This document shows positions 2-10,211 of a DNA stretch of 10,211 nucleotides, piece after piece. Each line of letters starts with the position of its first letter. Within the stretch, counting starts at the first letter, position 1. A model generated the notes under the pieces. The model was not told where the DNA came from, did not search any database, and was given only the letters and a program-made list of their open reading frames with translations. The stretch lies in NCBI GenBank assembly GCA_035387745.1, contig DAOOON010000009.1, positions 17,866 through 28,076 of the forward strand, in the 5' to 3' direction. A program made the position numbers and the translations under genes. Source of the DNA: an archaeon (lineage in GTDB: Archaea; Iainarchaeota; Iainarchaeia; Iainarchaeales; CSSED10-239).

Positions 2-1750
2 GGCACAACAATTGAATTAGACGAAATTAGCAAAATAAATAATCAATTAGACGATCTTGATAAACTATTAAAAGGGACAACATCAATATCCACTAGCACA
101 GCCGCAATAACCACGGATGATCAGCTGAAAATTGTTAATTCTTTAAAACAAACAAATCAAGGTATTGATGACGGTATAAAACAAATAGATGACGCAATCA
201 ATATTACAAACCCATCTGATACTGCAAAATTAGATACGTTAAAAGCCAATAGAGAAAGCTTACTTAAAGCAAAAGAAGGGCTATCTGAAATTAGTGATGA
301 CGTTTCTAAATTAAAACCAAACGGAGCAGGGAGTATAGAGGTTTCTTCCGAATTACAAAACAAAATAAATAATGTATCTCTTATTGATGATCAGATTAAA
401 GGTGTAAATTCGGCCTTATCTTCAATAGTCACTGGATCAAAATCAACTATGAGTTCCGCACAATTAGCAAATACGATTTCCGGTTTAGAAAAATCATCAG
501 CAAGTGCTGCAAAGCAATTGGCTATGTTAGATACCCAAATAGCGAATATGGAAAAAAGTAAAAACATAGTAACAATAGGCGCAAGAAATAAATATTTAGA
601 AAAATTAAAAGATCAAAGAGCTGGTCTTCAACAGGCTATAGAAAAATACAAAACTGCTGCTAATGAATTGGCAAGCGCACAAGATGATTTAGCAAAAACC
701 GGAAAAGGGGCCATAGAAGTATCCGATGACGTAATAAATAAAATAGATGATGCTTCAGGACTAGTTGCTGCCCAGAAGTTGCCTTCAAAATTAAGAAGGA
801 TATCAACAGGTCTACTAAAAATGGGGGTAGATATGGTTATAGTTGGAATTTCAAATGCTGCAGGGAAAGAATATTTAAATCGTCTTTCAAACGAGAACGG
901 ACAATTAGCAAATTTAGTTTATCAAGGAATTCCAGTTACTGAATTTGAAAAGAATGTGTGGTATAAAGTAACAGTAATAAAAAATTCAGACCGTTATAAT
1001 ATAATGATTGAAAAAGAAATACCGGCAATAAGTAATGATATAGTAATATATTATACAGATAATAAAGAAATTAAAGACATACAGACTTTAGAGCATCAAG
1101 ATGAATTATTACAAAATAATACACCGCAAGTACAATCACAAGATTGGTCAGAACTAAAAGAAGAGAAAGACAGAATTGATGCAACTCAAATTGCAACAAA
1201 TATTGAAGATTTACAAATGAGAATGTATTCTGAACACGAAACAAAATTAAAAGATTATGCAAGCTGTACATTTAGTAGTAGTGGCACTGTGTGTGTTGAT
1301 ATTAAGCCATTAACTCCAAACATGTGTGCTGCATTTGTTACAGGAGCATCTAGTAAGCTATATGGCGCAAACTATGTTGCAGGAAATGCTTGTGATTCTG
1401 GTACTGGCGCAAATCAAAATTATGGAACAAGAAACAGAATTGTTTGGCAAAAAGGAGAAGATAGTACAAGTTCATTAGATAATGTATTAGTGCCTGGTGT
1501 AGTAATAGGCATAGAAGGCACAAGTAACGTTCTTAAAAATTGTCAACCACCACATGTTGTTTTATATGTTGGTAAAAACGAATATGGTCAACACATGATA
1601 TTACAACAAAATGGAAGTAAAGGAAAATTAAGTCCTTTATTATCTGCAGATGGTGGCGCCTATCCTATGGAGAAAATATTTTTCATAGTTGTTCCAAAAA
1701 GTGGTTATGCAACTTATGATAATTTTGCAATAAATAATAATTTATCATAA
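2..1750 (+). CDS. 5'-truncated coiled-coil protein with a C-terminal NlpC/P60- or CHAP-like cysteine peptidase domain (putative extracellular cell-wall hydrolase)
   Basis: Frame 2 is open from nt 2 to TAA at 1748-1750. The track ORF begins at the first in-frame ATG (449). However, 149 stop-free codons lie upstream of it in AT-rich DNA, and they translate to the same heptad-like K/D/E/L/I/N-rich sequence. A ~24-aa motif (G-x-G-x-IEVS-x-x-x-x-NKI) occurs both upstream (323-394) and downstream (701-775) of that ATG. The gene therefore continues off the left edge. Confidence 0.85.
   Translation, partial: GTTIELDEISKINNQLDDLDKLLKGTTSISTSTAAITTDDQLKIVNSLKQTNQGIDDGIKQIDDAINITNPSDTAKLDTLKANRESLLKAKEGLSEISDDVSKLKPNGAGSIEVSSELQNKINNVSLIDDQIKGVNSALSSIVTGSKSTMSSAQLANTISGLEKSSASAAKQLAMLDTQIANMEKSKNIVTIGARNKYLEKLKDQRAGLQQAIEKYKTAANELASAQDDLAKTGKGAIEVSDDVINKIDDASGLVAAQKLPSKLRRISTGLLKMGVDMVIVGISNAAGKEYLNRLSNENGQLANLVYQGIPVTEFEKNVWYKVTVIKNSDRYNIMIEKEIPAISNDIVIYYTDNKEIKDIQTLEHQDELLQNNTPQVQSQDWSELKEEKDRIDATQIATNIEDLQMRMYSEHETKLKDYASCTFSSSGTVCVDIKPLTPNMCAAFVTGASSKLYGANYVAGNACDSGTGANQNYGTRNRIVWQKGEDSTSSLDNVLVPGVVIGIEGTSNVLKNCQPPHVVLYVGKNEYGQHMILQQNGSKGKLSPLLSADGGAYPMEKIFFIVVPKSGYATYDNFAINNNLS
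323..394 (+). repeat. Intragenic protein-level repeat, copy 1 (GAGSIEVSSELQNKINNVSLIDDQ)
   Basis: Manual translation of frame 2. It matches copy 2 at 701-775 in the G-x-G-x-IEVS...NKI...Q pattern. Confidence 0.6.
701..775 (+). repeat. Intragenic protein-level repeat, copy 2 (GKGAIEVSDDVINKIDDASGLVAAQ)
   Basis: Manual translation of frame 2. It matches copy 1 at 323-394. Confidence 0.6.
1262..1708 (+). other. Putative NlpC/P60- or CHAP-like papain-fold peptidase domain of gene 1
   Basis: The motif order resembles NlpC/P60 enzymes such as E. coli MepS/Spr (DCSGFV ... PGDLVLF ... HVGIYIG ... VHA). Here NMCAAFV carries a Cys at 1325-1327, LVPGVVIGIEG follows, PPHVVLYVG carries a His at 1553-1555, and GQHMILQ carries a second His at 1592-1594, 13 residues after the first. 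The domain has 5 Cys, an odd number that would allow one free catalytic thiol plus two disulfides. Confidence 0.5.
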
Positions 1751-1760
1751 TACTAACCTC

Positions 1761-1786
1761 TTTTAAATCTTTTTCTTATATTTTTA
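1761..1786 (+). promoter_or_regulatory. Possible TATA-like promoter elements upstream of gene 2 (TTTTAAAT, CTTATATTTTTA)
   Basis: A/T boxes lie 14-39 nt upstream of ATG 1800, and the last 20 nt contain no Shine-Dalgarno-like purine run. Such strings are common by chance in DNA this AT-rich. Confidence 0.15.
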
Positions 1787-1799
1787 TTTAGATTTAATC

Positions 1800-1889
1800 A
1801 TGAATAAAAAAGGCTTTACATTATTTACAGCACTGATCTCTTTGTTATTAGTATCTGTAGCCTTGTCTTTAATTTTTAATATGATTAAT
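1800..1889 (+). other. Class III (prepilin-type) signal peptide or N-terminal hydrophobic pilin helix of gene 2
   Basis: K-K-G precedes F-T-L and an uninterrupted ~22-residue hydrophobic stretch. This fits the archaeal prepilin pattern [KR][GA]|[hydrophobic]. It also fits the bacterial G|FTL pattern, except that position +5 is Thr rather than Glu. There is no AxA-type Sec cleavage site. A plain signal anchor is the alternative. Confidence 0.55.
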
Positions 1890-3590
1890 ACAGAAGACAC
1901 GTATCTCTCTCTTATTCAAGATCAATCGTCAATGTCTGATCTTATGACTATTGCTGATCTTGCAAGAGCTGATGCATTTAATACTTTCATAATAACTCTT
2001 AGATCCAATTGGGAAGAGCACATGTCTAGAAATCATATGCTAGTAACTAGAGACCAAATGGATATGAATTGGGATGATTTTACACAATGGTTTATAAAAG
2101 ACAATTTTTTTGAAAGAGCATTTCCTGCATACTTTGCTCAAGGTATACTTTTTAATCTTAAATATAAAATGGAGCCACCAGGATATGATATAAGAACAGA
2201 AACAAACACCGGCACAAAAATAGTTTGTACCGAAAATTGTGAATATGGAGCACCAAATTGTAATTGTGAAATTCAAGCAACTGACCCTGATAGCGATACA
2301 AACAATTTATTTATTGATGTAGTTGTTGATATTTTTAAAGCAGGAGGAGAGAAAGCAGATATTATTGATTGTAATCAAACCGATACCAACTGTAATGGCT
2401 CTTTCTTTTTAACATTAGACACTACTCAGCTTGCAGATGAAAACTATGAATTGTTGCCGATAGTAACTGTTTTAAGAACTAAAAGTAATCAAGTAATACA
2501 AAGACCAGTATTAAGCAGACAGATTTATAAGATATATATGCCATGGCGTGGTCTTCAAGCATTAAGAACTGCAAGAAATATTGTTTTAGATAATGATACA
2601 GAAGAAAATGAAAATCCTGCAACACACGAGAATGTTGGTTTTTTCTCTCCAACAATTCACAACACCCTAGAGCAGGCAAGGCTTGGTTTTTGTGATCCAG
2701 GAACCTGCGTTCCAAGAAATAATTTCTTTATCACGCCAAATAAAATAGGAGTAGGGAACAGTTTTTGCCATACTATTCCCAAAACTTTAACGGCATCGGT
2801 GCCTTCTAATTTACTTTCAATATCACAAGTAAAAAATCTTCCTACAACATATGATTCTACAGAAAACATTAAAGATGGCTTTCTAAAACTTTATGGTCAA
2901 TCGCTTCTAGGAAATTTGAGCCAAAAAAGAAACGGCCAAACAATTACTTACAATAATGGATTAATAATGGATGGCCTCATAACTCCAATAGCTCCAGATG
3001 TTAATATTTTTGAATTTGTATTAGACGTTAGTTCAAAAAGAAGTAAAAAATATGTTACTACTGTTGCAAGTAATTTTGACGACGATTATGGTGCATTCAA
3101 CTTTGATGCATTAAGCAAAATGCCTTCTCTTGTAGGCGGCTTAGGTCTATTCTTAAAAGATAACAAATCCTCGCTAATCTGGCAAGTTAATAAACCTTGG
3201 TACGATAATCAAGCAAGCTTAAATTTGCCCGCAGATAACTCACAATATTCTGGCATTTTTAATTGCTCTGAAATAAATAATGCAACAACAGTTCTGCAAT
3301 TTATAGAAACAGATCCAAGATATAGAATAAAAGAATCTTATAAAGGCGTTAATACAAATATTAAAATACATTTACGTGAAGATTTTAGTGAGTTTTATTT
3401 TACTCCGGACAATAATTGGTCAAATCTGAAGCTTATAATAAATGATAATGGTTATTTAGATCCAAATTCTGCAAATTCTTTTGGTGACACCACAATTGAT
3501 GAAATCGGCTCAGGAATACAACCATGGGTTTGTTACAGCCAAGTCGATAGTGACAGTTCAGCCCCAAATTGTGGCCCAAAGAAATCATAA
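1800..3590 (+). CDS. Large Cys-rich secreted protein with a type IV pilin-like (class III signal peptide) N-terminus; candidate minor or tip pilin, or pilus-associated adhesin
   Basis: This is a complete 596-codon ORF running from ATG 1800 to TAA 3588-3590. The N-terminus is MNKKG|FTLFTALISLLLVSVALSLIF. The mature part is polar and N/D/T-rich and contains exactly 12 Cys in local clusters (CTENCEYGAPNCNC, DCNQTDTNC, FCDPGTC, VCYSQVDSDSSAPNC). Confidence 0.9.
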   Translation: MNKKGFTLFTALISLLLVSVALSLIFNMINTEDTYLSLIQDQSSMSDLMTIADLARADAFNTFIITLRSNWEEHMSRNHMLVTRDQMDMNWDDFTQWFIKDNFFERAFPAYFAQGILFNLKYKMEPPGYDIRTETNTGTKIVCTENCEYGAPNCNCEIQATDPDSDTNNLFIDVVVDIFKAGGEKADIIDCNQTDTNCNGSFFLTLDTTQLADENYELLPIVTVLRTKSNQVIQRPVLSRQIYKIYMPWRGLQALRTARNIVLDNDTEENENPATHENVGFFSPTIHNTLEQARLGFCDPGTCVPRNNFFITPNKIGVGNSFCHTIPKTLTASVPSNLLSISQVKNLPTTYDSTENIKDGFLKLYGQSLLGNLSQKRNGQTITYNNGLIMDGLITPIAPDVNIFEFVLDVSSKRSKKYVTTVASNFDDDYGAFNFDALSKMPSLVGGLGLFLKDNKSSLIWQVNKPWYDNQASLNLPADNSQYSGIFNCSEINNATTVLQFIETDPRYRIKESYKGVNTNIKIHLREDFSEFYFTPDNNWSNLKLIINDNGYLDPNSANSFGDTTIDEIGSGIQPWVCYSQVDSDSSAPNCGPKKS

Positions 3591-3622
3591 AGTTATAACT
3601 TATACCAGTTAATTAATATTAT

Positions 3623-3716
3623 TTTATAAACCTTTTTGTTATTAGATATATTATCCAAAAAAGATAATATTTATAAACAATTGTTTAATCTATTATAATA
3701 TATATTATATTAAAAT
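3623..3716 (+). promoter_or_regulatory. Candidate promoter region for the giant gene: duplicated TTTATAAAC boxes and a TA-rich palindrome
   Basis: TTTATAAAC occurs at 3623-3631 and again at 3670-3678, the second time preceded by an A-rich run. A perfect 16-nt palindrome TATAATATATATTATA sits at 3694-3709. All of these lie 26-120 nt upstream of ATG 3742, in the only sizeable non-coding gap in the window. Confidence 0.3.
3633..3640 (+). terminator. Oligo-T tract (TTTTTGTT) downstream of gene 2; possible archaeal-style intrinsic terminator
   Basis: A T5 run lies 43 nt after the gene 2 stop. No GC-rich hairpin precedes it. The signal is weak in AT-rich DNA. Confidence 0.15.
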
Positions 3717-3727
3717 CTGAAATAAAA

Positions 3728-3733
3728 GAAGGT
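3728..3733 (+). promoter_or_regulatory. Shine-Dalgarno-like GAAGGT upstream of the giant gene
   Basis: It partially matches AGGAGGT and ends 8 nt before ATG 3742. Confidence 0.35.
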
Positions 3734-3741
3734 TTTCAAAA

Positions 3742-6700
3742 ATGGGATTAAAAGAATTCTACTATAAATTAGAAGATAAATATTTTGCAATGCTTGATAA
3801 TCTGGAGGAAAAGGGAATTAATTTATACAAATTAGTTGATCCTCTAGAAAAAAATGGAATACCAACATTCCCTATTTTTATAATTCTTATTCTTGCAATA
3901 ATCGGTTTGATAATTTTCTTATTACTTCCTGTTTTTGGAATAACAGGTGGACCGCACGGAACTGCTGTTCAATTTGTAAATGAAACAAATGATCCAATTT
4001 CTGATATAACCTTAAAAGTAAAATTAAATGGCCAGTCTAAAACAATAGAAACAGATTCTGAAGGTTATTTTTATTTTAAAGATTTAAGTAAAGATTCAAC
4101 TTATGTTTTAAAATTAGCAGACGATAAATATCTATTCTCAGATAGAGAAGAATATACAATTGATCCAAAAAAGGAATCACTAGTAGTTCATTTAAAAGAA
4201 GGCGCATTTTCAACCACAAAAACAATTTTATTTAAAACACAATCAGGAGAAGCAGTAACTTCTGAATTAAATGTAGAATTTAGTTGTCTTGGAACAGACT
4301 ATGAAAAAACAGTAATAGTTAAAGGTGGATCTCACACATTAGACGATATACCAACAGATTGTGGCAGTTTAACAGTAGATGTAAAAAACAGAAGTGATTA
4401 TGAAACAAAGATTCCTGCGGATGGAACAAGTGGGGAAATAATATTTAGTAGTTCTGTAAACTACGCAACATTATCGGTAACAATAAAAGATAAAGACAAA
4501 GGAATAATTCTACCCGGCATGTCAGTATCAATATATGATTTAACAGGGATAAAGGTTGATAGTGGACCAACAAATGCAAATGGTATTTTTTCAACAGAGT
4601 TAGTTCAAGTTTCAAAGACCTATAGAATATTAGTTTCTGATGATACAAAAAAAATTTATTCTGGAATAAACGATCAAGATTATGCAAATAATATTCAAAC
4701 ACCAGTAACAATAACTACAGGGATAAACACTAAATCATTAGAAATAAAACAAGATGTTGTTGGGTTTATAAAAGTAAAAGTAAAAAACGATTCTGGATTA
4801 TATCTAGAAGGCGTTTCTGTAAAATTATCAAAAGGCAGTTCTACAATTGATATTAAAACTACTGATTCTACGGGGGTTGTAGAGTTTGGAGTAAAAGAGA
4901 ATGTAACTTATGTTTTGTCCTTTGATAAAGAAGGTTATTTTGTTTACACAAACAGAAATGCAACAGTTTCTGAAAGTACAACAGAGGTCACTTTAAGGAG
5001 TATGACTGAAGAAACAAAAACCAGTTTATTGATTAGCGTAACCGATACAGAATTAAATCCTTTAGAATATGCGACTGTAAAAATATGGGATGCATTAAAT
5101 AATACAGTTGTTAAAATTGTAACTACAGATGTAACAGGCAGAGTAATTATTTCAAATTTAAGTGTGGAAACAACTTATTTAGCAGAAGCAATAGTTGGTC
5201 CATTTACTGGTAGAACAAATAATTTTGTAGTAGAGGAAAGAGAAGAGACGTCTGTTCCAATTTTAGTTTCAATTGGTTATGGCACTTATAATTTAACAAT
5301 ATTAAATTCAGATGGCAATCCTATTTCAAATGCAACAATAAAAGCATATGATGCAAGCACAAATAAAGAAATGACAGAAAAGCAAACAACCACTAACGAA
5401 ACAGGTCTTGCAATATTACCAATTAGAGCAGATAAAGAAGTATATTTTGCTATAGTCACAGCAGACGGCACAATAATTACAAAAAGATATTCTGTAGATG
5501 CAGAAAATGTAACAAACGATACAATAGTCATTCCTTCTAATGTTTCAAGCTCTGCAAGTCTGGAGTTTGTTGGCTATTTTTCCGCAAATGGAGAACAGTT
5601 GCCAGCAGTTAGTGCTGGTCAATCCGCAACAGCAAGATTTTTATTAAATGTTAATAAAAAATACTCAAAAGTTCTAGCACACATAAGAACAGGAGAAGGA
5701 GAAACTTGTGGTAACAGAACATATTCAATAACTGAAGATTCTATATATATTAAACAAATAAAATTTGCAGGAAATAAAATCATTGGTTCAATTGATTATA
5801 CACCATGTAATGGAGAATCAAAAGATACTGCTTCAATAGTCCGAAAAGATGCTAAATGGTTTAATGTTATTTTAGATAACCCAATAGAAGGGTCTTATAT
5901 TATTGATGCAGACATTGTAGTTACAGATACAGCAACAACCGATCAATCCATATTTTATAGAGCAGAATATCAACAAGGTTCTGCAATATTAAGAAATCCA
6001 AAAGACGATGTTATTGGAACAAGCCTAACTTCTCCAAATAGACAGGCACTTTATGCATATGCAAATAAGAAAATCATTTCAGTAGGTGATTCATCCAGTT
6101 GTGAAAACGGAATATGCTATGCTTTTACTATCAAAGACAAATCTACAGGTGCAGAAAAAAGAATAATGGACAAGTTTACAGCAAAAGAAGGAACAGATTA
6201 TCAACTTAATTTTAGATTAAGTTTTGAAAGACCTGCGACAGATGCAATTTTAGTGGTTTCACCAACAGGCCAAACAATAGTATTAAACGAATATGATATA
6301 ACTTCTGGTGGCAGTCTACCAATAACAGACACTGATTTTTCAAATATTAGTTTAGGAAATATAAATGCGAACGGCACAGTAAATGGTTCAATTGATTTAA
6401 GTGTAATTAATGACGTAACAGACGAATTGACCTTTAATATTTATGCAAATAGCGACAGCGTATTCTCAAAGATAATACACTTTGATCTTAAGCCTTCAAA
6501 AAAAATGATTGTTGATGTTGTTCCAAAAACAATGGTTCCATTTGTGCCTAATGTTATTTCTGTAGGAGTAACAGAAGAATCTGGCACAAAAATTTCTGAT
6601 GCAACAGTTTTTATAAGAATAAACGGAAAGACTATAGCAAATGGTAAAACCGACAGAGACGGTTTATATTCAGTAATGTTACCATCCACAGATATAAAAG

Positions 6701-9700
6701 ACGAAGTAGAATTTACAGTTAAAAAACAAAATTATAGTGGAGTTACAATAAAGCAAATAGTTTCTGAAAATCTAGTTGTTGCAACACCAGAGAAATTAGA
6801 TATACAATTAGATATTTCTAAAGGTTATTCTCAAGATTCTGGTTTGATATTAGTGAATAATTCAGTTTTACCATTAACAATTATTGGTTTAGAAACAAAC
6901 ATAAGGTCAGATTATGTTTCTATAAAAAGTGGCGCACAAGGCACAATTTTAGAACCCTCATTCCAGCAACAAATAAATATTTCAACTAAATTAACAGAGA
7001 AAGGAATAGATTTAATGGCTCAAAAAGTTATAGAAGGAGATCTTCTAATTAGCGTTAGTGAAGCAAGTCTTGCAAAAGTTTGGGTTATTAAAGTTCCAAT
7101 AAAAGTAAGAATTACTTTTGGGAATTCTGTAGACAACGTAGACTGTTTAGAAATTAATCCTCAAGAAACAACAATAAGAGTTGAAAATTCAAACGATATA
7201 GAATATAATCTTAAAATTAAAAATAATTGTACAGTAGATGATGAGCCAGTAGATATTGGCAGAATTTATGCAGAATCAGACTATAAGAACACAAAGAAAT
7301 TAGGAGATTATTTTGTAGTGGTTTCTGGTAAAGAACAAAAATTATCACTTGATGAAAAAGTGGAAGTTGCAAATAAAATTGTAGCAGAAGAAACCGCAAC
7401 CATAAAATTAATCTTTAGACCAAACAAGTCTGCAAAAAGTGGATTATCAAATCCAATAATCACATTCTCATCAAATAGGCCAAATGTAAATGGTATAGAT
7501 GTAATAGAGTCACAGCATTTACCAAGCATAATATTAAACAATTATGTTAGTTGTATAGAAACACCAAGCTCTCCAATTACAATTCCATATTGTATGGGTT
7601 ATGGTTATAATCTATATGCTGGTGGAACAAACACAATGAATTTTAATCCATTTTTAATGGGCCAATATAATTATCAATATGCTGGCCAAGCACCACAATC
7701 AATGAATCAAAGTTGGTTAACTGGTTCAACTTATCCAACTAGTATGATGGGATATCAAAGTGTATTGGGAACAGGAGTCCCATATACAAATTATAGAGAA
7801 AATACCCCTGCAGGATATCAAGGTGCTCAAGGCTTTTCATCATCTGGAATGTTTGGTTGTGAGAAAGCGCAAATACAAATTAGAAACAATTGTTCAGAAG
7901 AATTAAGTTTACAATTTAGTACTCTTGGTGGAGTAATAATTACAGATCCTGAAAATTCAGAAATGGCATTAAAAAAAGGCGCAAGTGGAATGTTAGGTGT
8001 ACAGGGCTCACAAGTTCTTGGACAATACAAGATAGCAGTAAATGCAAAGCCAGACGATGATGCTATAGAAGAATACACTTATGTAAAAGACATAGTTGTT
8101 TCAGTAAATAGACCAGTTAGTATTTTGCCTGAAAATTGTATAAGCGTAGTTCCTACAGAATTTGATTTCTCTGGAATAGATACAACAGAAAAGAAACTAA
8201 TGGTAATCAATACCTGTTATGACATGGGCTATGCATTATTAGGTTTAAGTGTCTTAAATGAAGATCAATTAATTGTTGGAGAGGTTCAATATTTCTCTAT
8301 TGGAGATGTAAATGCAAATCTTAAGCCAAAGAAAACATATAGATATGTAGACGGTAAAACCACAGAAATAATGACCATCAAAATTAGAAGAAATCCTGAT
8401 ATTACAGAAAAAACATTAAGACTTGATAGCGAAGATAATAATTCTATTGCTAAGAAACTAACCGCACTAAGAAAAGATTATTATGATGTTGGCAAGTCCG
8501 TAAATTTAACAGCATTACTTGGAATTACTTATTCTAATCCAAGATTAGGAAATGATGAAATGGAAGCAGAGATTACTTTAACAGATAAGCTTCAATGGTT
8601 AAGTTATATAGATAGCTTTGCAGACACCAGTTCTGCTCTTGAAGGTCAAACACCACCAACAGATTCCACAGATACAACGACCGGGGCACAAGTACCATCA
8701 TTTACAGAATACTTCGCAGGTAGCGAGGCTCTAAATCCTGGCGAGTGTTATGATCCAAAAGGATTTAAGAAACAAGGATTCACTGGAGAAGATAATTTTA
8801 AAAAATATGGTTTTAACAGATTATTATTTACATATAATGATACAGATATAACTCATAATATATGTGATTATGGAAGAGTCTATTGTGATCAAGATCAATT
8901 AAGAATTGCCATATCTAAAAAAGCAGATATGCAAGGTGCAAATAAAACCTATCTATTAGATGGAACATATTTCTTACTTGAAGGAAATAAGATTGCAGCA
9001 AATCCTTATTTCTTTGATGAAGATGAAAATCCATTAGATAAGGCCGCAATAGAAAGCATAGTTTCAAGTCAAACATTTAATAATCGCGACCCAAATTCAA
9101 TATTACAGGCTTTAAAAGCAGTATTAAATAGAGTGCCTGCAGATTTAAGAAAATTTACAATACTTGAAGCAAAGATTGGTCCAATAACTACAAGCGAACC
9201 AACACCAGTAAATCTTTCAGCAGATAACATAAAAGCGTATATGACCATATTTGGAGATAATGACTTTACAAAGAACGTAAAGCAAGACGGAGACGTCTAT
9301 CAAATAACTGTTGATTCTTTCTTAAGAAGTGAAGGAAAATTAGAAGAGAAGATTAATAGCGCTTCAACTTCTTTACAAGAGCAAGCAATTATTGCTGAGT
9401 TCTTGAATCAATATCTAAATACAATGCAGTTATATTATGGTGACACAATAAGTCCATTTATTATTAATGCAAAGACATACGGTGCATTAAATTCAGGAAA
9501 TACGAAATCAATATTTGGTGCTGTTCAGTTCATGAGTGGAGCATGGAATTTAACTTTAGATTCAACGTCTCCAGTAAAAGAGGTTGCAACTCCAGGAACA
9601 TACAGCATTGCATTTAAGAATTCTTCAACTAATAAACAATTAACTTATACTGTTCAAAAAATAACTTCTAATTTATTAGATTATTATAATAATAATCCAG

Positions 9701-10211
9701 ATTATAAGACAAACACCTTCTTTACAAATCCAACAAACGCTTATTATTTCCATTATTTCGGGGTGCCTTTTAAGACCGCAAATACCGGGCAATCAAAAGC
9801 AACAGTTATTATTAATAACTACAACAACGGTTGGGATAAAGTACAAGATGGTATTATATTAAATGTTCCAAAAGACAACGCAGCAATATCTTTTAAAGAT
9901 ATAAGACCATTACAGGTTTTATCTTCTGGGGCATATAAGATAGAATATATAGCAAATGGCAAATATTCTTCAAAAGACACTTCAGAATTAAAAAATACTT
10001 TGTTTATTTTCCAAAAAATAAATGAAACAACAAAAGGTGCAGACTATCAATTAAAGACCTCTTCAAACTTAGATATGAAATTTAATATTGTTCCGACAAC
10101 ACTAAGTGCTACAAAGAACTTTACGCACGTTTATGGAGTACTAAAAGACATAACTAGTTCAAGTAATTTTACAGCTGAAGAAACAAGTTCAGTAAAGATA
10201 ATGGTTGATGG
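3742..10211 (+). CDS. Giant N-terminally membrane-anchored multi-domain surface (adhesin-like) protein, 3'-truncated by the window (at least 2,156 aa)
   Basis: In-frame TGA at 3718-3720 is followed by the first ATG at 3742. I then read frame 1 without any stop to nt 10211. The translation is protein-like throughout, with one TM helix, repeated beta-sandwich-type modules and paired cysteines. It is absent from the ORF track, presumably because no stop lies inside the window. Confidence 0.9.
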   Translation, partial: MGLKEFYYKLEDKYFAMLDNLEEKGINLYKLVDPLEKNGIPTFPIFIILILAIIGLIIFLLLPVFGITGGPHGTAVQFVNETNDPISDITLKVKLNGQSKTIETDSEGYFYFKDLSKDSTYVLKLADDKYLFSDREEYTIDPKKESLVVHLKEGAFSTTKTILFKTQSGEAVTSELNVEFSCLGTDYEKTVIVKGGSHTLDDIPTDCGSLTVDVKNRSDYETKIPADGTSGEIIFSSSVNYATLSVTIKDKDKGIILPGMSVSIYDLTGIKVDSGPTNANGIFSTELVQVSKTYRILVSDDTKKIYSGINDQDYANNIQTPVTITTGINTKSLEIKQDVVGFIKVKVKNDSGLYLEGVSVKLSKGSSTIDIKTTDSTGVVEFGVKENVTYVLSFDKEGYFVYTNRNATVSESTTEVTLRSMTEETKTSLLISVTDTELNPLEYATVKIWDALNNTVVKIVTTDVTGRVIISNLSVETTYLAEAIVGPFTGRTNNFVVEEREETSVPILVSIGYGTYNLTILNSDGNPISNATIKAYDASTNKEMTEKQTTTNETGLAILPIRADKEVYFAIVTADGTIITKRYSVDAENVTNDTIVIPSNVSSSASLEFVGYFSANGEQLPAVSAGQSATARFLLNVNKKYSKVLAHIRTGEGETCGNRTYSITEDSIYIKQIKFAGNKIIGSIDYTPCNGESKDTASIVRKDAKWFNVILDNPIEGSYIIDADIVVTDTATTDQSIFYRAEYQQGSAILRNPKDDVIGTSLTSPNRQALYAYANKKIISVGDSSSCENGICYAFTIKDKSTGAEKRIMDKFTAKEGTDYQLNFRLSFERPATDAILVVSPTGQTIVLNEYDITSGGSLPITDTDFSNISLGNINANGTVNGSIDLSVINDVTDELTFNIYANSDSVFSKIIHFDLKPSKKMIVDVVPKTMVPFVPNVISVGVTEESGTKISDATVFIRINGKTIANGKTDRDGLYSVMLPSTDIKDEVEFTVKKQNYSGVTIKQIVSENLVVATPEKLDIQLDISKGYSQDSGLILVNNSVLPLTIIGLETNIRSDYVSIKSGAQGTILEPSFQQQINISTKLTEKGIDLMAQKVIEGDLLISVSEASLAKVWVIKVPIKVRITFGNSVDNVDCLEINPQETTIRVENSNDIEYNLKIKNNCTVDDEPVDIGRIYAESDYKNTKKLGDYFVVVSGKEQKLSLDEKVEVANKIVAEETATIKLIFRPNKSAKSGLSNPIITFSSNRPNVNGIDVIESQHLPSIILNNYVSCIETPSSPITIPYCMGYGYNLYAGGTNTMNFNPFLMGQYNYQYAGQAPQSMNQSWLTGSTYPTSMMGYQSVLGTGVPYTNYRENTPAGYQGAQGFSSSGMFGCEKAQIQIRNNCSEELSLQFSTLGGVIITDPENSEMALKKGASGMLGVQGSQVLGQYKIAVNAKPDDDAIEEYTYVKDIVVSVNRPVSILPENCISVVPTEFDFSGIDTTEKKLMVINTCYDMGYALLGLSVLNEDQLIVGEVQYFSIGDVNANLKPKKTYRYVDGKTTEIMTIKIRRNPDITEKTLRLDSEDNNSIAKKLTALRKDYYDVGKSVNLTALLGITYSNPRLGNDEMEAEITLTDKLQWLSYIDSFADTSSALEGQTPPTDSTDTTTGAQVPSFTEYFAGSEALNPGECYDPKGFKKQGFTGEDNFKKYGFNRLLFTYNDTDITHNICDYGRVYCDQDQLRIAISKKADMQGANKTYLLDGTYFLLEGNKIAANPYFFDEDENPLDKAAIESIVSSQTFNNRDPNSILQALKAVLNRVPADLRKFTILEAKIGPITTSEPTPVNLSADNIKAYMTIFGDNDFTKNVKQDGDVYQITVDSFLRSEGKLEEKINSASTSLQEQAIIAEFLNQYLNTMQLYYGDTISPFIINAKTYGALNSGNTKSIFGAVQFMSGAWNLTLDSTSPVKEVATPGTYSIAFKNSSTNKQLTYTVQKITSNLLDYYNNNPDYKTNTFFTNPTNAYYFHYFGVPFKTANTGQSKATVIINNYNNGWDKVQDGIILNVPKDNAAISFKDIRPLQVLSSGAYKIEYIANGKYSSKDTSELKNTLFIFQKINETTKGADYQLKTSSNLDMKFNIVPTTLSATKNFTHVYGVLKDITSSSNFTAEETSSVKIMVD
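3862..3939 (+). other. Single transmembrane signal-anchor helix of the giant protein (aa 41-66, PTFPIFIILILAIIGLIIFLLLPVFG)
   Basis: A 26-residue uncharged hydrophobic stretch follows a 40-aa charged leader (MGLKEFYYKLEDKYFAMLDNLEEKGINLYKLVDPLEKNGI). The leader carries several Lys, which fits an N-in, C-out topology. Confidence 0.75.
3961..5535 (+). repeat. Tandem array of six divergent ~80-95-aa carboxypeptidase-regulatory-like (CarboxypepD_reg / Ig-like beta-sandwich) domains (protein-level repeats)
   Basis: A core pattern recurs: [hydrophobic-x]n ... T(T)D-x-x-G ... hydrophobic ... x-Y-x-[hydrophobic]. Examples are TDSEGYFYFKDLSKDSTYVLKL, TTDSTGVVEFGVKENVTYVLSF, TTDVTGRVIISNLSVETTYLAEA and TTNETGLAILPIRADKEVYFAIV. 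Approximate units are 3961-4197, 4204-4461, 4462-4749, 4753-5001, 5017-5271 and 5281-5535. The DNA copies are not identical. Confidence 0.6.
6499..6762 (+). repeat. Seventh, isolated CarboxypepD_reg-like domain in the giant protein
   Basis: ISVGVTEESGTKISDATVFIRINGKTIANGKTDRDGLYSVMLPSTDIKDEVEFTV shows the same pattern as the 3961-5535 array. Confidence 0.5.
7591..7860 (+). other. Cys-bracketed, nearly uncharged G/Y/Q/N/M-rich low-complexity island (90 aa) in the giant protein
   Basis: My manual count of the 90 residues from Cys (7591-7593) to Cys (7858-7860) gives 15 Gly, 11 Tyr, 8 Gln, 8 Asn and 7 Met. There is only one Arg and one Glu, and no Lys, Asp, His or Ile. The flanking sequence is rich in K/E/D/I. 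Confidence 0.8.

What the first reader, a model, noticed from the sequence alone, without database searches (positions are those of the whole stretch)
1262..1708. NlpC/P60- or CHAP-like Cys-His-His domain at the tip of the coiled-coil protein
The C-terminal ~150 aa of gene 1 reproduce the motif order of NlpC/P60 hydrolases. NMCAAFV carries Cys 1325-1327, followed by LVPGVVIGIEG, then PPHVVLYVG with His 1553-1555, then GQHMILQ with His 1592-1594. The His-His spacing is 13 residues, compared with 12 in E. coli MepS/Spr. The five cysteines fit one catalytic thiol plus two disulfides in a secreted enzyme. If the organism is an archaeon, a murein- or pseudomurein-type endopeptidase would have no self substrate and would point to a foreign target (host or prey) wall. 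If it is a bacterium, a remodelling enzyme or an effector is possible.
Basis: partly seen in the sequence, partly recalled or inferred. Interest (0 to 1): 0.65.

Follow-up and report, generated by a model that had tools for sequence, protein, structure and literature searches.

The report
Papain-like hydrolase tipping archaeal giant protein
The last ~190 residues of a roughly 3,000-residue surface protein from a tiny symbiotic (DPANN) archaeon form a previously unannotated relative of bacterial and phage cell-wall-cutting cysteine enzymes, probably used on the wall of a partner cell.

Summary
Cys 1325-1327, His 1553-1555, His 1592-1594 and five cysteines are in frame where stated. The Cys and the first His are invariant in 22 homologues at 25-74% identity.

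- No Pfam, NCBIfam, PHROG or PDB sequence match exists.
- A family profile aligns to an NlpC/P60 profile at 88% probability (P 3e-6), catalytic Cys on Cys and His on His.
- Two AlphaFold models (pLDDT 91 and 94) show the papain-like order of elements.
- Their best Foldseek matches are MepS, CHAP endolysins and Gsp amidase, at weak scores (best E 8e-4, TM 0.4-0.55).

One correction. The third catalytic position is Gln 1604-1606, a Gln/His (rarely Asp) column. It aligns with the third His of NlpC/P60 and Glu134 of LysK.

The two cysteine pairs are gained and lost together, which fits two disulfides plus one free thiol.

All genome hits are archaeal (DPANN) MAGs. The domain ends an N-terminally anchored giant protein in a conserved three-gene cluster with a pilin-like gene and a second giant protein. 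One homologue adds a genuine NlpC/P60 domain.

This is a new family of a known superfamily. A foreign cell wall as substrate is inferred, not shown.

The parts
2..1750 (+). 3' part of gene 1: the C-terminal 582 residues of a giant protein of about 3,000 residues. It is anchored at its N-terminus and carries a helical or coiled-coil-like stalk, then a beta-rich module, then the hydrolase domain.
   Evidence: The frame is open from the window edge. Full-length homologues are P0003 (2,978 aa, 70% identical), the L005 ORF (about 3,116 aa) and P0011 (2,855 aa). Each has a single strong TM helix near the N-terminus.
926..1130 (+). Conserved beta-rich module of unknown function upstream of the hydrolase domain (approximate limits).
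   Evidence: It is conserved in P0002, P0005, P0007 and P0008. It has no Pfam, NCBIfam or PHROG match. It was not modelled.
1202..1735 (+). Papain-like (NlpC/P60-CHAP superfamily) domain: two N-terminal helices, a disulfide hairpin, the Cys-bearing core helix, then five strands.
   Evidence: AlphaFold2 model with pLDDT 90.9 and pTM 0.89. hhalign to an NlpC/P60 profile gives probability 88%, P 3e-6.
1325..1327 (+). Predicted catalytic cysteine (C50 of fragment 1178-1747), at the N-terminus of the core helix.
   Evidence: It is invariant in 22 sequences. It is the first residue of helix 50-62. It aligns with the Cys of DCSAF in NlpC/P60 and with C54 of LysK.
1553..1555 (+). Predicted catalytic histidine (H126), the first residue of strand beta2.
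   Evidence: It is invariant. Strand 126-133 starts here. It aligns with the His of HVTIY in NlpC/P60 and with H117 of LysK.
1604..1606 (+). Gln143, the predicted third (histidine-orienting) residue on strand beta3.
   Evidence: The column holds Q (13), H (8) and S (1), and D in L103 and H in L104. It aligns with the third His of NlpC/P60 (MIHAS) and with E134 of LysK (ILQQN against ILEQN). It lies 17 residues after H126.
1592..1594 (+). It is probably not catalytic.
   Evidence: It lies in a 5-residue insertion relative to NlpC/P60. It sits at the far end of the beta2-beta3 hairpin from H126 (strands 126-133 and 139-145). The column varies among H, Q, D and N.
1265..1294 (+). Cys pair 1 (C30 at 1265-7, C39 at 1292-4), an inferred disulfide in an N-terminal hairpin.
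   Evidence: Both are present in 13 sequences and both absent in 9 of 22.
1391..1543 (+). Cys pair 2 (C72 at 1391-3 in 'GNAC', C122 at 1541-3 in 'NCQP'), an inferred disulfide.
   Evidence: Both are present in 9 sequences and both absent in 13 of 22.
1493..1498 (+). The invariant Pro-Gly before strand beta1. It corresponds to the 'PGD' of NlpC/P60 but lacks the Asp.
   Evidence: P106 and G107 are invariant. They align with PGDL. The 'GD' motif is defined as a feature of the NlpC/P60-CHAP cluster in PMC10318531.
1800..3590 (+). Gene 2: a 596-residue cysteine-rich protein with a type IV prepilin-like N-terminus (KKGFTLFTALISLLLVS). It is always the next gene after gene 1.
   Evidence: ORF. There are weak NCBIfam hits to ComGF, ComGE and ComGD minor-pilin N-termini (E 0.0014). 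Position and N-terminus are conserved in L001 and L005-L009.
3742..10209 (+). Gene 3: a second giant surface protein (>2,156 residues, running off the window). It has an N-terminal TM helix and Ig-like repeats, and is a distant paralogue of gene 1 over the first ~800 residues.
   Evidence: Pfam hits are CarboxypepD_reg x6, MG4 and Big_1. BLASTP to P0003 gives 22% identity over 838 residues, E 2e-8. Full-length homologues are 2,474-2,564 aa in L007 and L009.

Best explanation
The region encodes the distal, catalytic end of a surface protein of about 3,000 residues from a DPANN (Nanobdellati) archaeon.

The protein has a short cytoplasmic N-terminus, one transmembrane helix, a long extracellular run of Ig-like domains and a helical stalk. 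It ends in a domain of about 180 residues that is a new family of the NlpC/P60-CHAP papain-like superfamily.

The proposed mechanism is as follows. The thiol of Cys 1325-7, at the N-terminus of the core helix, is activated by His 1553-5 on strand beta2. That His is oriented by Gln 1604-6 (His or Asp in relatives) on strand beta3. Two disulfides stabilise the extracellular fold. The enzyme forms and hydrolyses a thioester, as cysteine amidases and endopeptidases do.

I infer that the substrate is a peptide or isopeptide bond in the cell wall of another cell that the archaeon contacts. Bacterial murein is most likely; pseudomurein is the main alternative. The neighbouring pilin-like protein and second giant protein would form part of the same contact apparatus.

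Shown here: fold class, residue conservation, domain position, archaeal origin and gene-cluster conservation. Inferred: catalysis, extracellular location, and above all the substrate.
For: **Homology and fold**
- hhalign of the 17-sequence family alignment against a profile of 115 PF00877 domains gives probability 88%, P 3e-6 over 91 columns. Cys aligns on Cys, His on His, and Gln143 on the third His.
- None of 200 column shuffles and none of 200 block shuffles reached the real score.
- The AlphaFold2 models have pLDDT 90.9 and 94.4. Both show a helix starting at the Cys followed by five strands, with the His at the start of beta2. This is the core defined for papain-like enzymes in PMC10318531.
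- Foldseek top hits are wall hydrolases of this superfamily. They include MepS 8xup (probability 0.82), NlpC/P60 2hbw, 2evr and 3m1u (TM up to 0.55), the CHAP endolysin Ly7917 5d74 (E 8e-4, probability 1.00), the phi812 CHAP domain, Gsp amidase, and many phage CHAP/C51 lysins (E 1.6e-3 to 6e-2, probability 0.95-0.99).

**Conservation**
- Cys and His are invariant. The third column is Q, H or D. The cysteine pairs covary.

**Context**
- The homologue P0006 carries a true NLPC_P60 domain (E 1e-24) directly after this domain, about 50% identical to bacterial C40 peptidases. This resembles two-domain wall hydrolases.
- There is a single N-terminal TM helix.
- All 6 genome hits are archaeal MAGs. 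One of those MAGs also encodes a thermosome, archaeal DnaG and Kae1.
- The three-gene cluster is conserved in six loci.
- Archaeal peptidoglycan hydrolases aimed at bacteria are documented and are prominent in Nanoarchaeota (PMC12352652).
Against: - No sequence model of any known family is matched, even at E<=10.
- Only one of three Foldseek searches gave a hit at E<=0.001, and all TM-scores are 0.4-0.55.
- The Asp of the 'GD' motif typical of NlpC/P60-CHAP is missing.
- The LysK-type CHAP profile comparison is not significant (probability 2.3%).
- No recognised wall-binding module (SH3b, LysM, PG_binding, PMB) is present.
This argues against a recent transfer of a bacterial lysin.
- Small membrane-anchored paralogues (about 200 residues) could act on the cell's own surface.
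- All cultivated DPANN have archaeal hosts without murein (abstract of bioRxiv 10.1101/2023.02.24.529834).
- I could not measure the Cys-His distance in the models, because the tools do not expose coordinates.
Confidence: 0.55

Rival explanations
1. It is a self-directed surface peptidase or amidase. The domain would act on the archaeon's own envelope. Examples are maturation, shedding or remodelling of S-layer or giant surface proteins, or autoprocessing of the giant protein. It would not act on a foreign wall.
For: - Stand-alone paralogues of about 200 residues have an N-terminal anchor and only a ~50-residue linker, which keeps the enzyme at the producer's own surface.
- The family was found only in archaeal MAGs, which fits an ancient lineage-specific housekeeping role.
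- No wall-binding module was detected.
Against: - Placing the domain at the far end of an extracellular protein of about 2,900 residues suits reach rather than self-maintenance.
- P0006 adds a bacterial-type gamma-D-Glu-diamino-acid endopeptidase domain, for which an archaeon has no substrate of its own.
- The nearest structural neighbours are wall lysins.
Confidence: 0.2
2. It is a contact-dependent toxin or effector tip, as in CdiA, Rhs or other polymorphic toxins. The papain-like domain would be delivered into or onto a target cell. There it would act as a protease, deamidase or LRAT-like lipid acyltransferase/phospholipase, not as a wall hydrolase.
For: - Foldseek lists a papain-like cysteine protease toxin (9l5u, TM 0.48-0.49), the Tae2 effector and a CdiA-CT among its weak hits.
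- The position at the extreme C-terminus of a giant filament-like protein resembles polymorphic toxins.
- The NlpC/P60 superfamily includes LRAT acyltransferases (PMC10318531).
Against: - The C-terminal domain is conserved across all homologues, not polymorphic.
- The next gene is a conserved 600-residue pilin-like protein, not a small variable immunity gene.
- Two inferred disulfides argue for function outside cells.
- The topology is non-permuted, unlike LRAT.
Confidence: 0.12
3. It is a non-catalytic papain-like module that only binds a ligand. That is, it is a pseudoenzyme or adhesin tip.
For: - The Asp of the 'GD' motif is missing and the third residue is Gln in the window.
- No family model is matched.
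Against: - Cys and His are invariant in 22 or more sequences at as little as 25% identity, while neighbouring positions vary.
- The third column keeps only catalytically competent residues (Q, H, D), with one exception.
Confidence: 0.05

Closest known systems
NlpC/P60 (peptidase C40, PF00877) gamma-D-glutamyl-diamino-acid endopeptidases, e.g. E. coli MepS/Spr and YkfC
   Same: - Non-permuted order: Cys at the start of a helix, then 'PG' strand beta1, then His at the start of beta2 in an H-h-h-h-Y-h-G motif, then a polar third residue on beta3.
- Best profile-profile partner (88%).
- MepS is the top PDB Foldseek hit for the window model.
- One family member has a true PF00877 domain fused behind it.
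   Different: - It fails the PF00877 model outright.
- It lacks the Asp of PGD.
- The beta2-beta3 hairpin is 5 residues longer, so the spacing from His to the third residue is 17 rather than 12.
- The third residue is Gln/His/Asp.
- It has extra N-terminal helices and a disulfide hairpin, plus a disulfide-stapled insert after the Cys helix.
- It was found only in archaea.
CHAP domain (peptidase C51, PF05257), e.g. LysK/CHAPk (4csh), Ly7917 (5d74), Gsp amidase
   Same: - Identical register by eye and in hhalign. The Cys is followed about 20 residues later by 'GNA'. The His is followed 17 residues later by the third residue, in 'ILQQN' against 'ILEQN' of LysK (H117, E134, N136).
- CHAP proteins are the top Foldseek hits for the stand-alone homologue and in the viral library.
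   Different: - The profile comparison with LysK-type CHAP is not significant (probability 2.3%, P 0.02).
- There is no PF05257 hit.
- Gln or His replaces Glu.
- The catalytic-residue numbering of LysK comes from my own knowledge of the literature. Its sequence was verified against 4csh.
SPEARE proteins of Nanohaloarchaeota (Hamm et al. 2019, PMC6642349)
   Same: They are giant (3,000-8,500 residue), mostly extracellular, single-anchor proteins of DPANN archaea. They combine adhesion domains with a hydrolytic (protease) domain and are proposed to mediate host contact.
   Different: - No sequence relationship was found.
- SPEARE proteins carry a serine protease, laminin-G, a toxin-like domain and a cytoplasmic restriction-enzyme domain.
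- Here there is a cysteine papain-like tip, Ig-like or CarboxypepD_reg repeats, and a conserved partnership with a pilin-like gene and a second giant paralogue.
Modular archaeal peptidoglycan hydrolases (Strock et al. 2025, PMC12352652)
   Same: They are archaeal extracellular enzymes with folds of bacterial wall hydrolases. They are enriched in Nanoarchaeota and are interpreted as acting on bacteria, because the producers lack murein.
   Different: Those were found through known Pfam catalytic plus wall-binding domains, and many look recently transferred from bacteria. This family matches no Pfam model, has no recognised binding domain, was found only in archaea, and sits on a giant anchored protein.

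Membership tests
Papain-like fold / NlpC/P60 superfamily (Anantharaman & Aravind 2003; definition as in PMC10318531) | [quoted passage not shown] | tested here: met
   Cys 1325-7 is residue 50 of the model, and helix 50-62 starts there. The same holds in the P0021 model, where C19 starts helix 19-31. The residue is invariant.
Papain-like fold / NlpC/P60 superfamily (Anantharaman & Aravind 2003; definition as in PMC10318531) | His on strand beta2 and a polar residue on strand beta3, after the helix (non-permuted order), within a 4-5 stranded antiparallel sheet | tested here: met
   Strands are 109-112, 126-133 (H126 first), 139-145 (Q143), 148-153 and 167-172. hhalign maps H126 and Q143 onto the second and third catalytic residues of NlpC/P60. 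The sheet topology in 3-D was not inspected.
Papain-like fold / NlpC/P60 superfamily (Anantharaman & Aravind 2003; definition as in PMC10318531) | Cys and His side chains adjacent in space | not testable with these tools
   The tools report model confidence and secondary structure but give no coordinates. Adjacency is inferred from homology only.
Papain-like fold / NlpC/P60 superfamily (Anantharaman & Aravind 2003; definition as in PMC10318531) | Significant structural match to solved members | tested here: inconclusive
   Top hits are consistently from this superfamily but are weak. Window model against PDB: best E 0.09, TM 0.39-0.50. Against BFVD: best E 1.6e-3, probability 0.95-0.99. Stand-alone homologue against PDB: E 8.2e-4, probability 1.00, TM 0.44-0.55.
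NLPC_P60 (PF00877, peptidase C40) | Score above the Pfam gathering threshold | tested here: not met
   No hit at E<=10 for the window domain or for seven homologues. As a positive control, P0006's extra domain scores 87 bits against a cut-off of 23.
NLPC_P60 (PF00877, peptidase C40) | Profile-profile homology with the catalytic residues aligned | tested here: met
   hhalign probability 87.6-88%, P 3e-6, 91 columns. None of 400 shuffled controls reached the score.
NLPC_P60 (PF00877, peptidase C40) | 'GD' motif on strand beta1 (the Asp pairs with an Arg on beta5), a feature of the NlpC/P60-CHAP cluster | tested here: not met
   Pro-Gly is invariant, but the next residue is V, A, N, Q or H and never D. 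The feature is defined in PMC10318531.
NLPC_P60 (PF00877, peptidase C40) | Third catalytic residue about 12 residues after the His (H-x11-H) | tested here: not met
   The spacing is 12 in P0006's PF00877 domain (HVTIYMGDGKMIH). In this family the spacing is 17 (16 in the small paralogues) and the residue is Q, H or D.
CHAP (PF05257, peptidase C51) | Score above the Pfam gathering threshold | tested here: not met
   No hit at E<=10.
CHAP (PF05257, peptidase C51) | Profile-profile homology | tested here: inconclusive
   Against a narrow LysK-type profile of 33 phage sequences, probability is 2.3% and P 0.02. The register is nevertheless correct for Cys, GNA, His and the third residue. A broad CHAP profile was not available.
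Pseudomurein endoisopeptidase (PeiW/PeiP) / transglutaminase-like | Match to the Pfam family models (hmmscan of all Pfam-A) or to solved transglutaminase-fold structures | tested here: not met
   hmmscan of all Pfam-A at E<=10 gave nothing. No transglutaminase or Pei structure is among the top 50 Foldseek hits.
Polymorphic toxin systems (CdiA/Rhs-like) | Variable C-terminal toxin domain followed by a cognate small immunity gene | tested here: not met
   The same C-terminal domain is present in all homologues. The downstream gene is a conserved ~600-residue pilin-like protein in 6 of 6 loci.

The most novel reading that the evidence does not exclude
The three-gene cluster (giant protein with a cysteine-hydrolase tip, pilin-like protein, second giant paralogue) is a dedicated host-breaching apparatus of a group of DPANN archaea. 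Its tip enzyme cuts bacterial murein. That would mean these archaea attach to and feed on bacteria, a cross-domain episymbiosis that has not been demonstrated. The tip would be a new, archaea-specific family of wall lysins.
Probability: 0.2. Interest if true: 0.8.

Novelty: new variant of a known kind. Interest (0 to 1): 0.55.

Why it matters
The hosts and attachment mechanisms of most DPANN archaea are unknown. This domain is a conserved enzyme displayed at the far end of a surface protein of about 3,000 residues. It sits in a conserved cluster with a pilin-like protein and a second giant protein.

That makes it a concrete, expressible handle of about 190 residues. Its bond specificity (murein, pseudomurein or protein) would indicate what kind of cell these archaea contact.

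It also adds an unannotated family to the NlpC/P60-CHAP superfamily that current Pfam, NCBIfam and PHROG models miss. Surveys of archaeal wall hydrolases based on those models would therefore overlook it.

If it is lytic on bacterial or methanogen walls, it is a new lysin scaffold.

Tried and rejected
**Sequence and profile searches that found nothing for the C-terminal domain**
- Direct hmmscan of the C-terminal domain and seven homologues against Pfam, NCBIfam and PHROGs.
- phmmer and profile hmmsearch against PDB sequences; the only hit at E<=10 was a chance match at E 1.4.

**Homologue searches**
- The word-indexed homologue search with the single sequence gave only two close relatives.
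- The exhaustive phmmer search and the profile search were needed to find the family.

**CHAP comparison**
- I built a CHAP profile from phage loci to ask whether CHAP is closer than NlpC/P60.
- The result was not significant, probably because that profile is narrow (LysK-like only).

**Collection scans**
- A scan of IMG/VR viral contigs for the family gave no member, so I dropped a viral or provirus origin.
The scan with A1 added six loci but no new domain fusions.

**Readings rejected**
- Polymorphic-toxin reading: the domain is not variable and there is no immunity-like gene.
- Transglutaminase or Pei reading: no support from sequence or fold.

**Technical problems**
- The first structure job was lost on the remote machine and was re-run with the same result.
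Full report
**1. What is in the window**

The window is a whole 10,211-bp metagenomic contig (ENA ERZ761564 NODE_8064) with about 31% G+C. It carries three genes on the + strand.
- Gene 1 is open from the left edge to the stop at 1748-1750. 582 residues are visible.
- Gene 2 spans 1800-3590 (596 residues).
- Gene 3 runs from 3742 past the right edge (more than 2,156 residues).

The finding concerns the last ~160 residues of gene 1.

**2. The observation**

- NMCAAFV has Cys at 1325-1327.
- LVPGVVIGIEG is present.
- PPHVVLYVG has His at 1553-1555.
- GQHMILQ has His at 1592-1594, 13 residues after the first His.
- There are five cysteines, at 1265, 1292, 1325, 1391 and 1541.

The pattern is not chance, because homologues conserve it. 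A word-indexed search found only two close relatives. An exhaustive phmmer search of 1.84 billion representatives found ten. A profile search added a set of stand-alone proteins of about 200 residues. Genome and metagenome scans added further loci.

In a 22-sequence alignment spanning 25-74% identity, Cys 1325 and His 1553 are invariant. So are an Asn, a Trp, the Pro-Gly, a Tyr and a Gly.

The other four cysteines behave as two units. The 1265/1292 pair is present together in 13 sequences and absent together in 9. The 1391/1541 pair is present together in 9 and absent together in 13.

**3. Is it NlpC/P60- or CHAP-like?**

*Sequence models.* These say no.
- hmmscan at E<=10 against Pfam gives nothing for the window domain or seven homologues.
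- NCBIfam and PHROGs give nothing for the domain.
- PDB sequence searches with the single sequence and with a profile give no credible match; the single-sequence search returned only a chance hit at E 1.4, the profile search none.

*Profile-profile comparison.* This says yes. One homologue, P0006 (3,182 residues), carries an additional genuine NLPC_P60 domain after the family domain (87 bits against a cut-off of 23). I collected 115 relatives of that domain and compared their profile with the family alignment using hhalign.
- The result was probability 88%, P 3e-6 over 91 columns.
- The family Cys aligns on the DCSAF Cys.
- The PG aligns on PGDL.
- His 1553 aligns on the HVTIY His.
- None of 200 column-shuffled and none of 200 block-shuffled versions of the family alignment reached the real score (42.2, against maxima of 27.5 and 39.7).

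*Structure prediction.* This agrees in kind.
- The window domain (residues from nt 1178-1747) gives an AlphaFold2 model with pLDDT 90.9 and pTM 0.89.
- A stand-alone homologue (P0021 ectodomain) gives pLDDT 94.4.
- In both, the Cys is the first residue of a helix. That helix is followed by five strands, with the His as the first residue of the second. This is the core defined for papain-like enzymes (PMC10318531).

*Foldseek hits.* They are weak but consistent.

| Query model | Library | Main hits |
|---|---|---|
| Window domain | PDB | MepS 8xup (E 0.09, probability 0.82, TM 0.39/0.50), CHAP 5t1q and 2k3a, NlpC/P60 2hbw and 2evr, a papain-like toxin |
| Window domain | Viral (BFVD) | Almost only phage CHAP/peptidase-C51 lysins (E 1.6e-3 to 6e-2, probability up to 0.99) |
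| Stand-alone homologue | PDB | CHAP endolysin Ly7917 (E 8.2e-4, probability 1.00), phi812 CHAP, Gsp amidase, NlpC/P60 3m1u (TM 0.55) |

*CHAP profile.* A LysK-type CHAP profile that I assembled from phage loci gave a non-significant score (probability 2.3%). The register was correct nonetheless. My NlpC/P60 and CHAP profiles, which represent known relatives, reached only 48% against each other. The CHAP test is therefore weak rather than negative.

*Conclusion.* This is a new family inside the NlpC/P60-CHAP superfamily, not a member of PF00877 or PF05257.

**4. Correction of the triad**

- In the hhalign alignment it lies in a 5-residue insertion in the beta2-beta3 hairpin. Gln143 (nt 1604-1606) lies opposite the third His of NlpC/P60 (MIHAS).
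- In the CHAP alignment Gln143 lies opposite Glu134 of LysK, in 'ILQQN' against 'ILEQN'. I verified the LysK sequence against 4csh. The LysK residue roles come from my own knowledge.
- In the model the hairpin strands are 126-133 and 139-145. Residue 139 therefore pairs with the far end of the hairpin from His126, and 143-145 with the near end. This is an inference from antiparallel pairing; I had no coordinates.
- The column of residue 143 holds Q (13), H (8) and S (1), plus D and H in two further loci. This is the usual repertoire of histidine-orienting residues. The column of residue 139 holds H, Q, D and N.

The canonical His-to-third-residue spacing of 12 is visible in P0006's own PF00877 domain. 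Here the spacing is 17. The agreement of 13 with 12 was coincidental.

The Asp of the 'GD' motif that marks NlpC/P60-CHAP enzymes is also absent: Pro-Gly is followed by V, A, N, Q or H.

**5. Context**

*Gene 1.* Full-length homologues of gene 1 are 2,855-3,182 residues long.
- They have one strong transmembrane helix near residue 60-110 and nothing comparable afterwards.
- They carry CarboxypepD_reg, MG3 and SdrD_B-like Ig domains, then a helical stalk, a conserved beta-rich module, and the hydrolase domain at the extreme C-terminus.
- The enzyme therefore sits at the distal end of an N-terminally anchored extracellular protein. The orientation is inferred.

*Gene cluster.* The order giant-1, pilin-like gene, giant-2 is conserved in L001, L005, L006, L007, L008 and L009.
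- Gene 2 has a type IV prepilin-like N-terminus (KKGFTLFTALISLLLVS), with weak hits to ComGF, ComGE and ComGD N-termini.
- Gene 3 is a distant paralogue of gene 1 over its first ~800 residues (22% identity, E 2e-8).

*Organism.* All six hits in species-representative genomes are archaeal MAGs, one of them named Candidatus (I)ainarchaeum, a DPANN/Nanobdellati lineage. The MAG holding L009 and L010 also encodes a thermosome, archaeal DnaG and Kae1 next to a small paralogue. No member was found in IMG/VR viral contigs.

**6. Mechanism and rivals**

The best-supported reading is an extracellular cysteine amidase/endopeptidase with a Cys-His-Gln triad, held at the tip of a long surface protein and acting on the wall of a contacted cell. 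I put about 0.85 on a catalytically competent papain-like hydrolase. I put about 0.45-0.5 on a foreign wall polymer as substrate.

In favour of a foreign wall:
- The nearest sequence and structure relatives are wall hydrolases.
- P0006 fuses a bacterial-type gamma-D-Glu-diamino-acid endopeptidase (about 50% identical to bacterial C40 peptidases) right behind it, as in two-domain lysins.
- Archaea have no murein of their own.
- Archaeal peptidoglycan hydrolases, prominent in Nanoarchaeota, have been shown to kill bacteria (PMC12352652).

Against:
- No wall-binding module is present.
- The distribution found is archaeal only.
- Small membrane-anchored paralogues exist.
- Cultivated DPANN all have archaeal hosts.

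The rivals are a self-directed surface peptidase (0.2), a contact-dependent effector acting inside the target (0.12) and a non-catalytic module (0.05). Pseudomurein rather than murein as the target is a variant of the main reading that I cannot separate in silico.

**7. Comparison with what is known, and novelty**

In fold and chemistry it works like NlpC/P60 and CHAP enzymes. It is not a member of either Pfam family, since several defining features were tested and not met.

At the system level it resembles the SPEARE giant proteins of Nanohaloarchaeota, which are giant, anchored, adhesive and hydrolytic and are proposed to mediate host contact (PMC6642349). It shows no sequence relationship to them and has a different enzyme class.

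I rate it a new variant of a known kind: an unannotated family, found so far only in archaea, in an unusual and conserved architectural context.

Interest is moderate (0.55). The fold is familiar and archaeal wall hydrolases are now documented. However, the domain gives a direct, testable handle on what these uncultured archaea attach to.

Noticed in passing
window 1800-3590 (gene 2); L005 10545-12353; L007 1816-3522; L009 10506-12326: This is a ~600-residue cysteine-rich protein with a bacterial-style type IV prepilin N-terminus (K/R-G-F-T-L-F-T-A-L, with Thr where bacterial pilins have Glu+5). It is always encoded between the two giant genes. The only matches are weak hits to ComGF, ComGE and ComGD N-termini.
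   Followed up: partly
window 3742-10209 (gene 3): A second giant surface protein runs off the contig end (full-length homologues are 2,474-2,564 aa). It shares with gene-1 homologues a conserved cytoplasmic N-terminal motif (Y..LE.KY...L..KGI.L.K....KGIP.F), the TM helix and the first ~800 residues (22% identity, E 2e-8). It has no hydrolase domain that Pfam recognises.
   Followed up: partly
P0006 residues ~3040-3182 (homologue of gene 1): One giant homologue has an extra, genuine NLPC_P60 domain (PF00877, E 1e-24) appended after the family domain. It is about 50% identical to C40 peptidases, the named ones being from Clostridia (Blautia, Lachnospiraceae, Eubacteriales) and Acidimicrobiia, which suggests horizontal acquisition from bacteria.
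   Followed up: yes
window ~926-1130: A conserved beta-rich module (VWYKVTVIK...IYYTDNKEIK...) lies between the helical stalk and the hydrolase domain. It has no family match. It could be a binding module but was not modelled.
   Followed up: no
P0003 residues ~2150-2250 (upstream of the part seen in the window): Full-length homologues contain a Cys/Gly-rich hydrophobic stretch (GCMGSCATL...NCGLGCGMP). It does not reach TM-helix hydrophobicity in most members. Its role is unknown.
   Followed up: no
L010 9635-12438; L104 953-3576: The MAG that has the three-gene giant cluster (L009) also has two adjacent paralogues carrying the same domain. One is a 257-residue signal-peptide protein and the other a ~670-residue protein. 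They sit among archaeal housekeeping genes (thermosome, Kae1, DnaG).
   Followed up: partly
L005 397-954; L009 1164-1718: A small membrane protein resembling LemA is encoded directly upstream of the giant gene 1 in two distant loci. For the L005 copy, NCBIfam gives a below-cutoff hit to the MamQ model (E 2e-22, 79.7 bits against a cut-off of 250); calling it LemA-like is my own reading of the sequence.
   Followed up: no
window 1751-1799 and 3591-3741: The intergenic regions are very A+T-rich, with TATA-like runs (TTTTAAAT and TTATATTTTT) 15-40 nt before the gene 2 start and no Shine-Dalgarno-like purine run. This fits archaeal promoters with short or absent leaders. I read this by eye only.
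   Followed up: no
L001 (ENA ERZ2647914, coverage ~1x): The syntenic contig that supplied P0002 has the three genes broken into several ORFs. These are most likely frameshifts from a low-coverage assembly. P0002's odd C-terminus (…VPKVAMQLMIIM) is therefore probably an artefact.
   Followed up: partly
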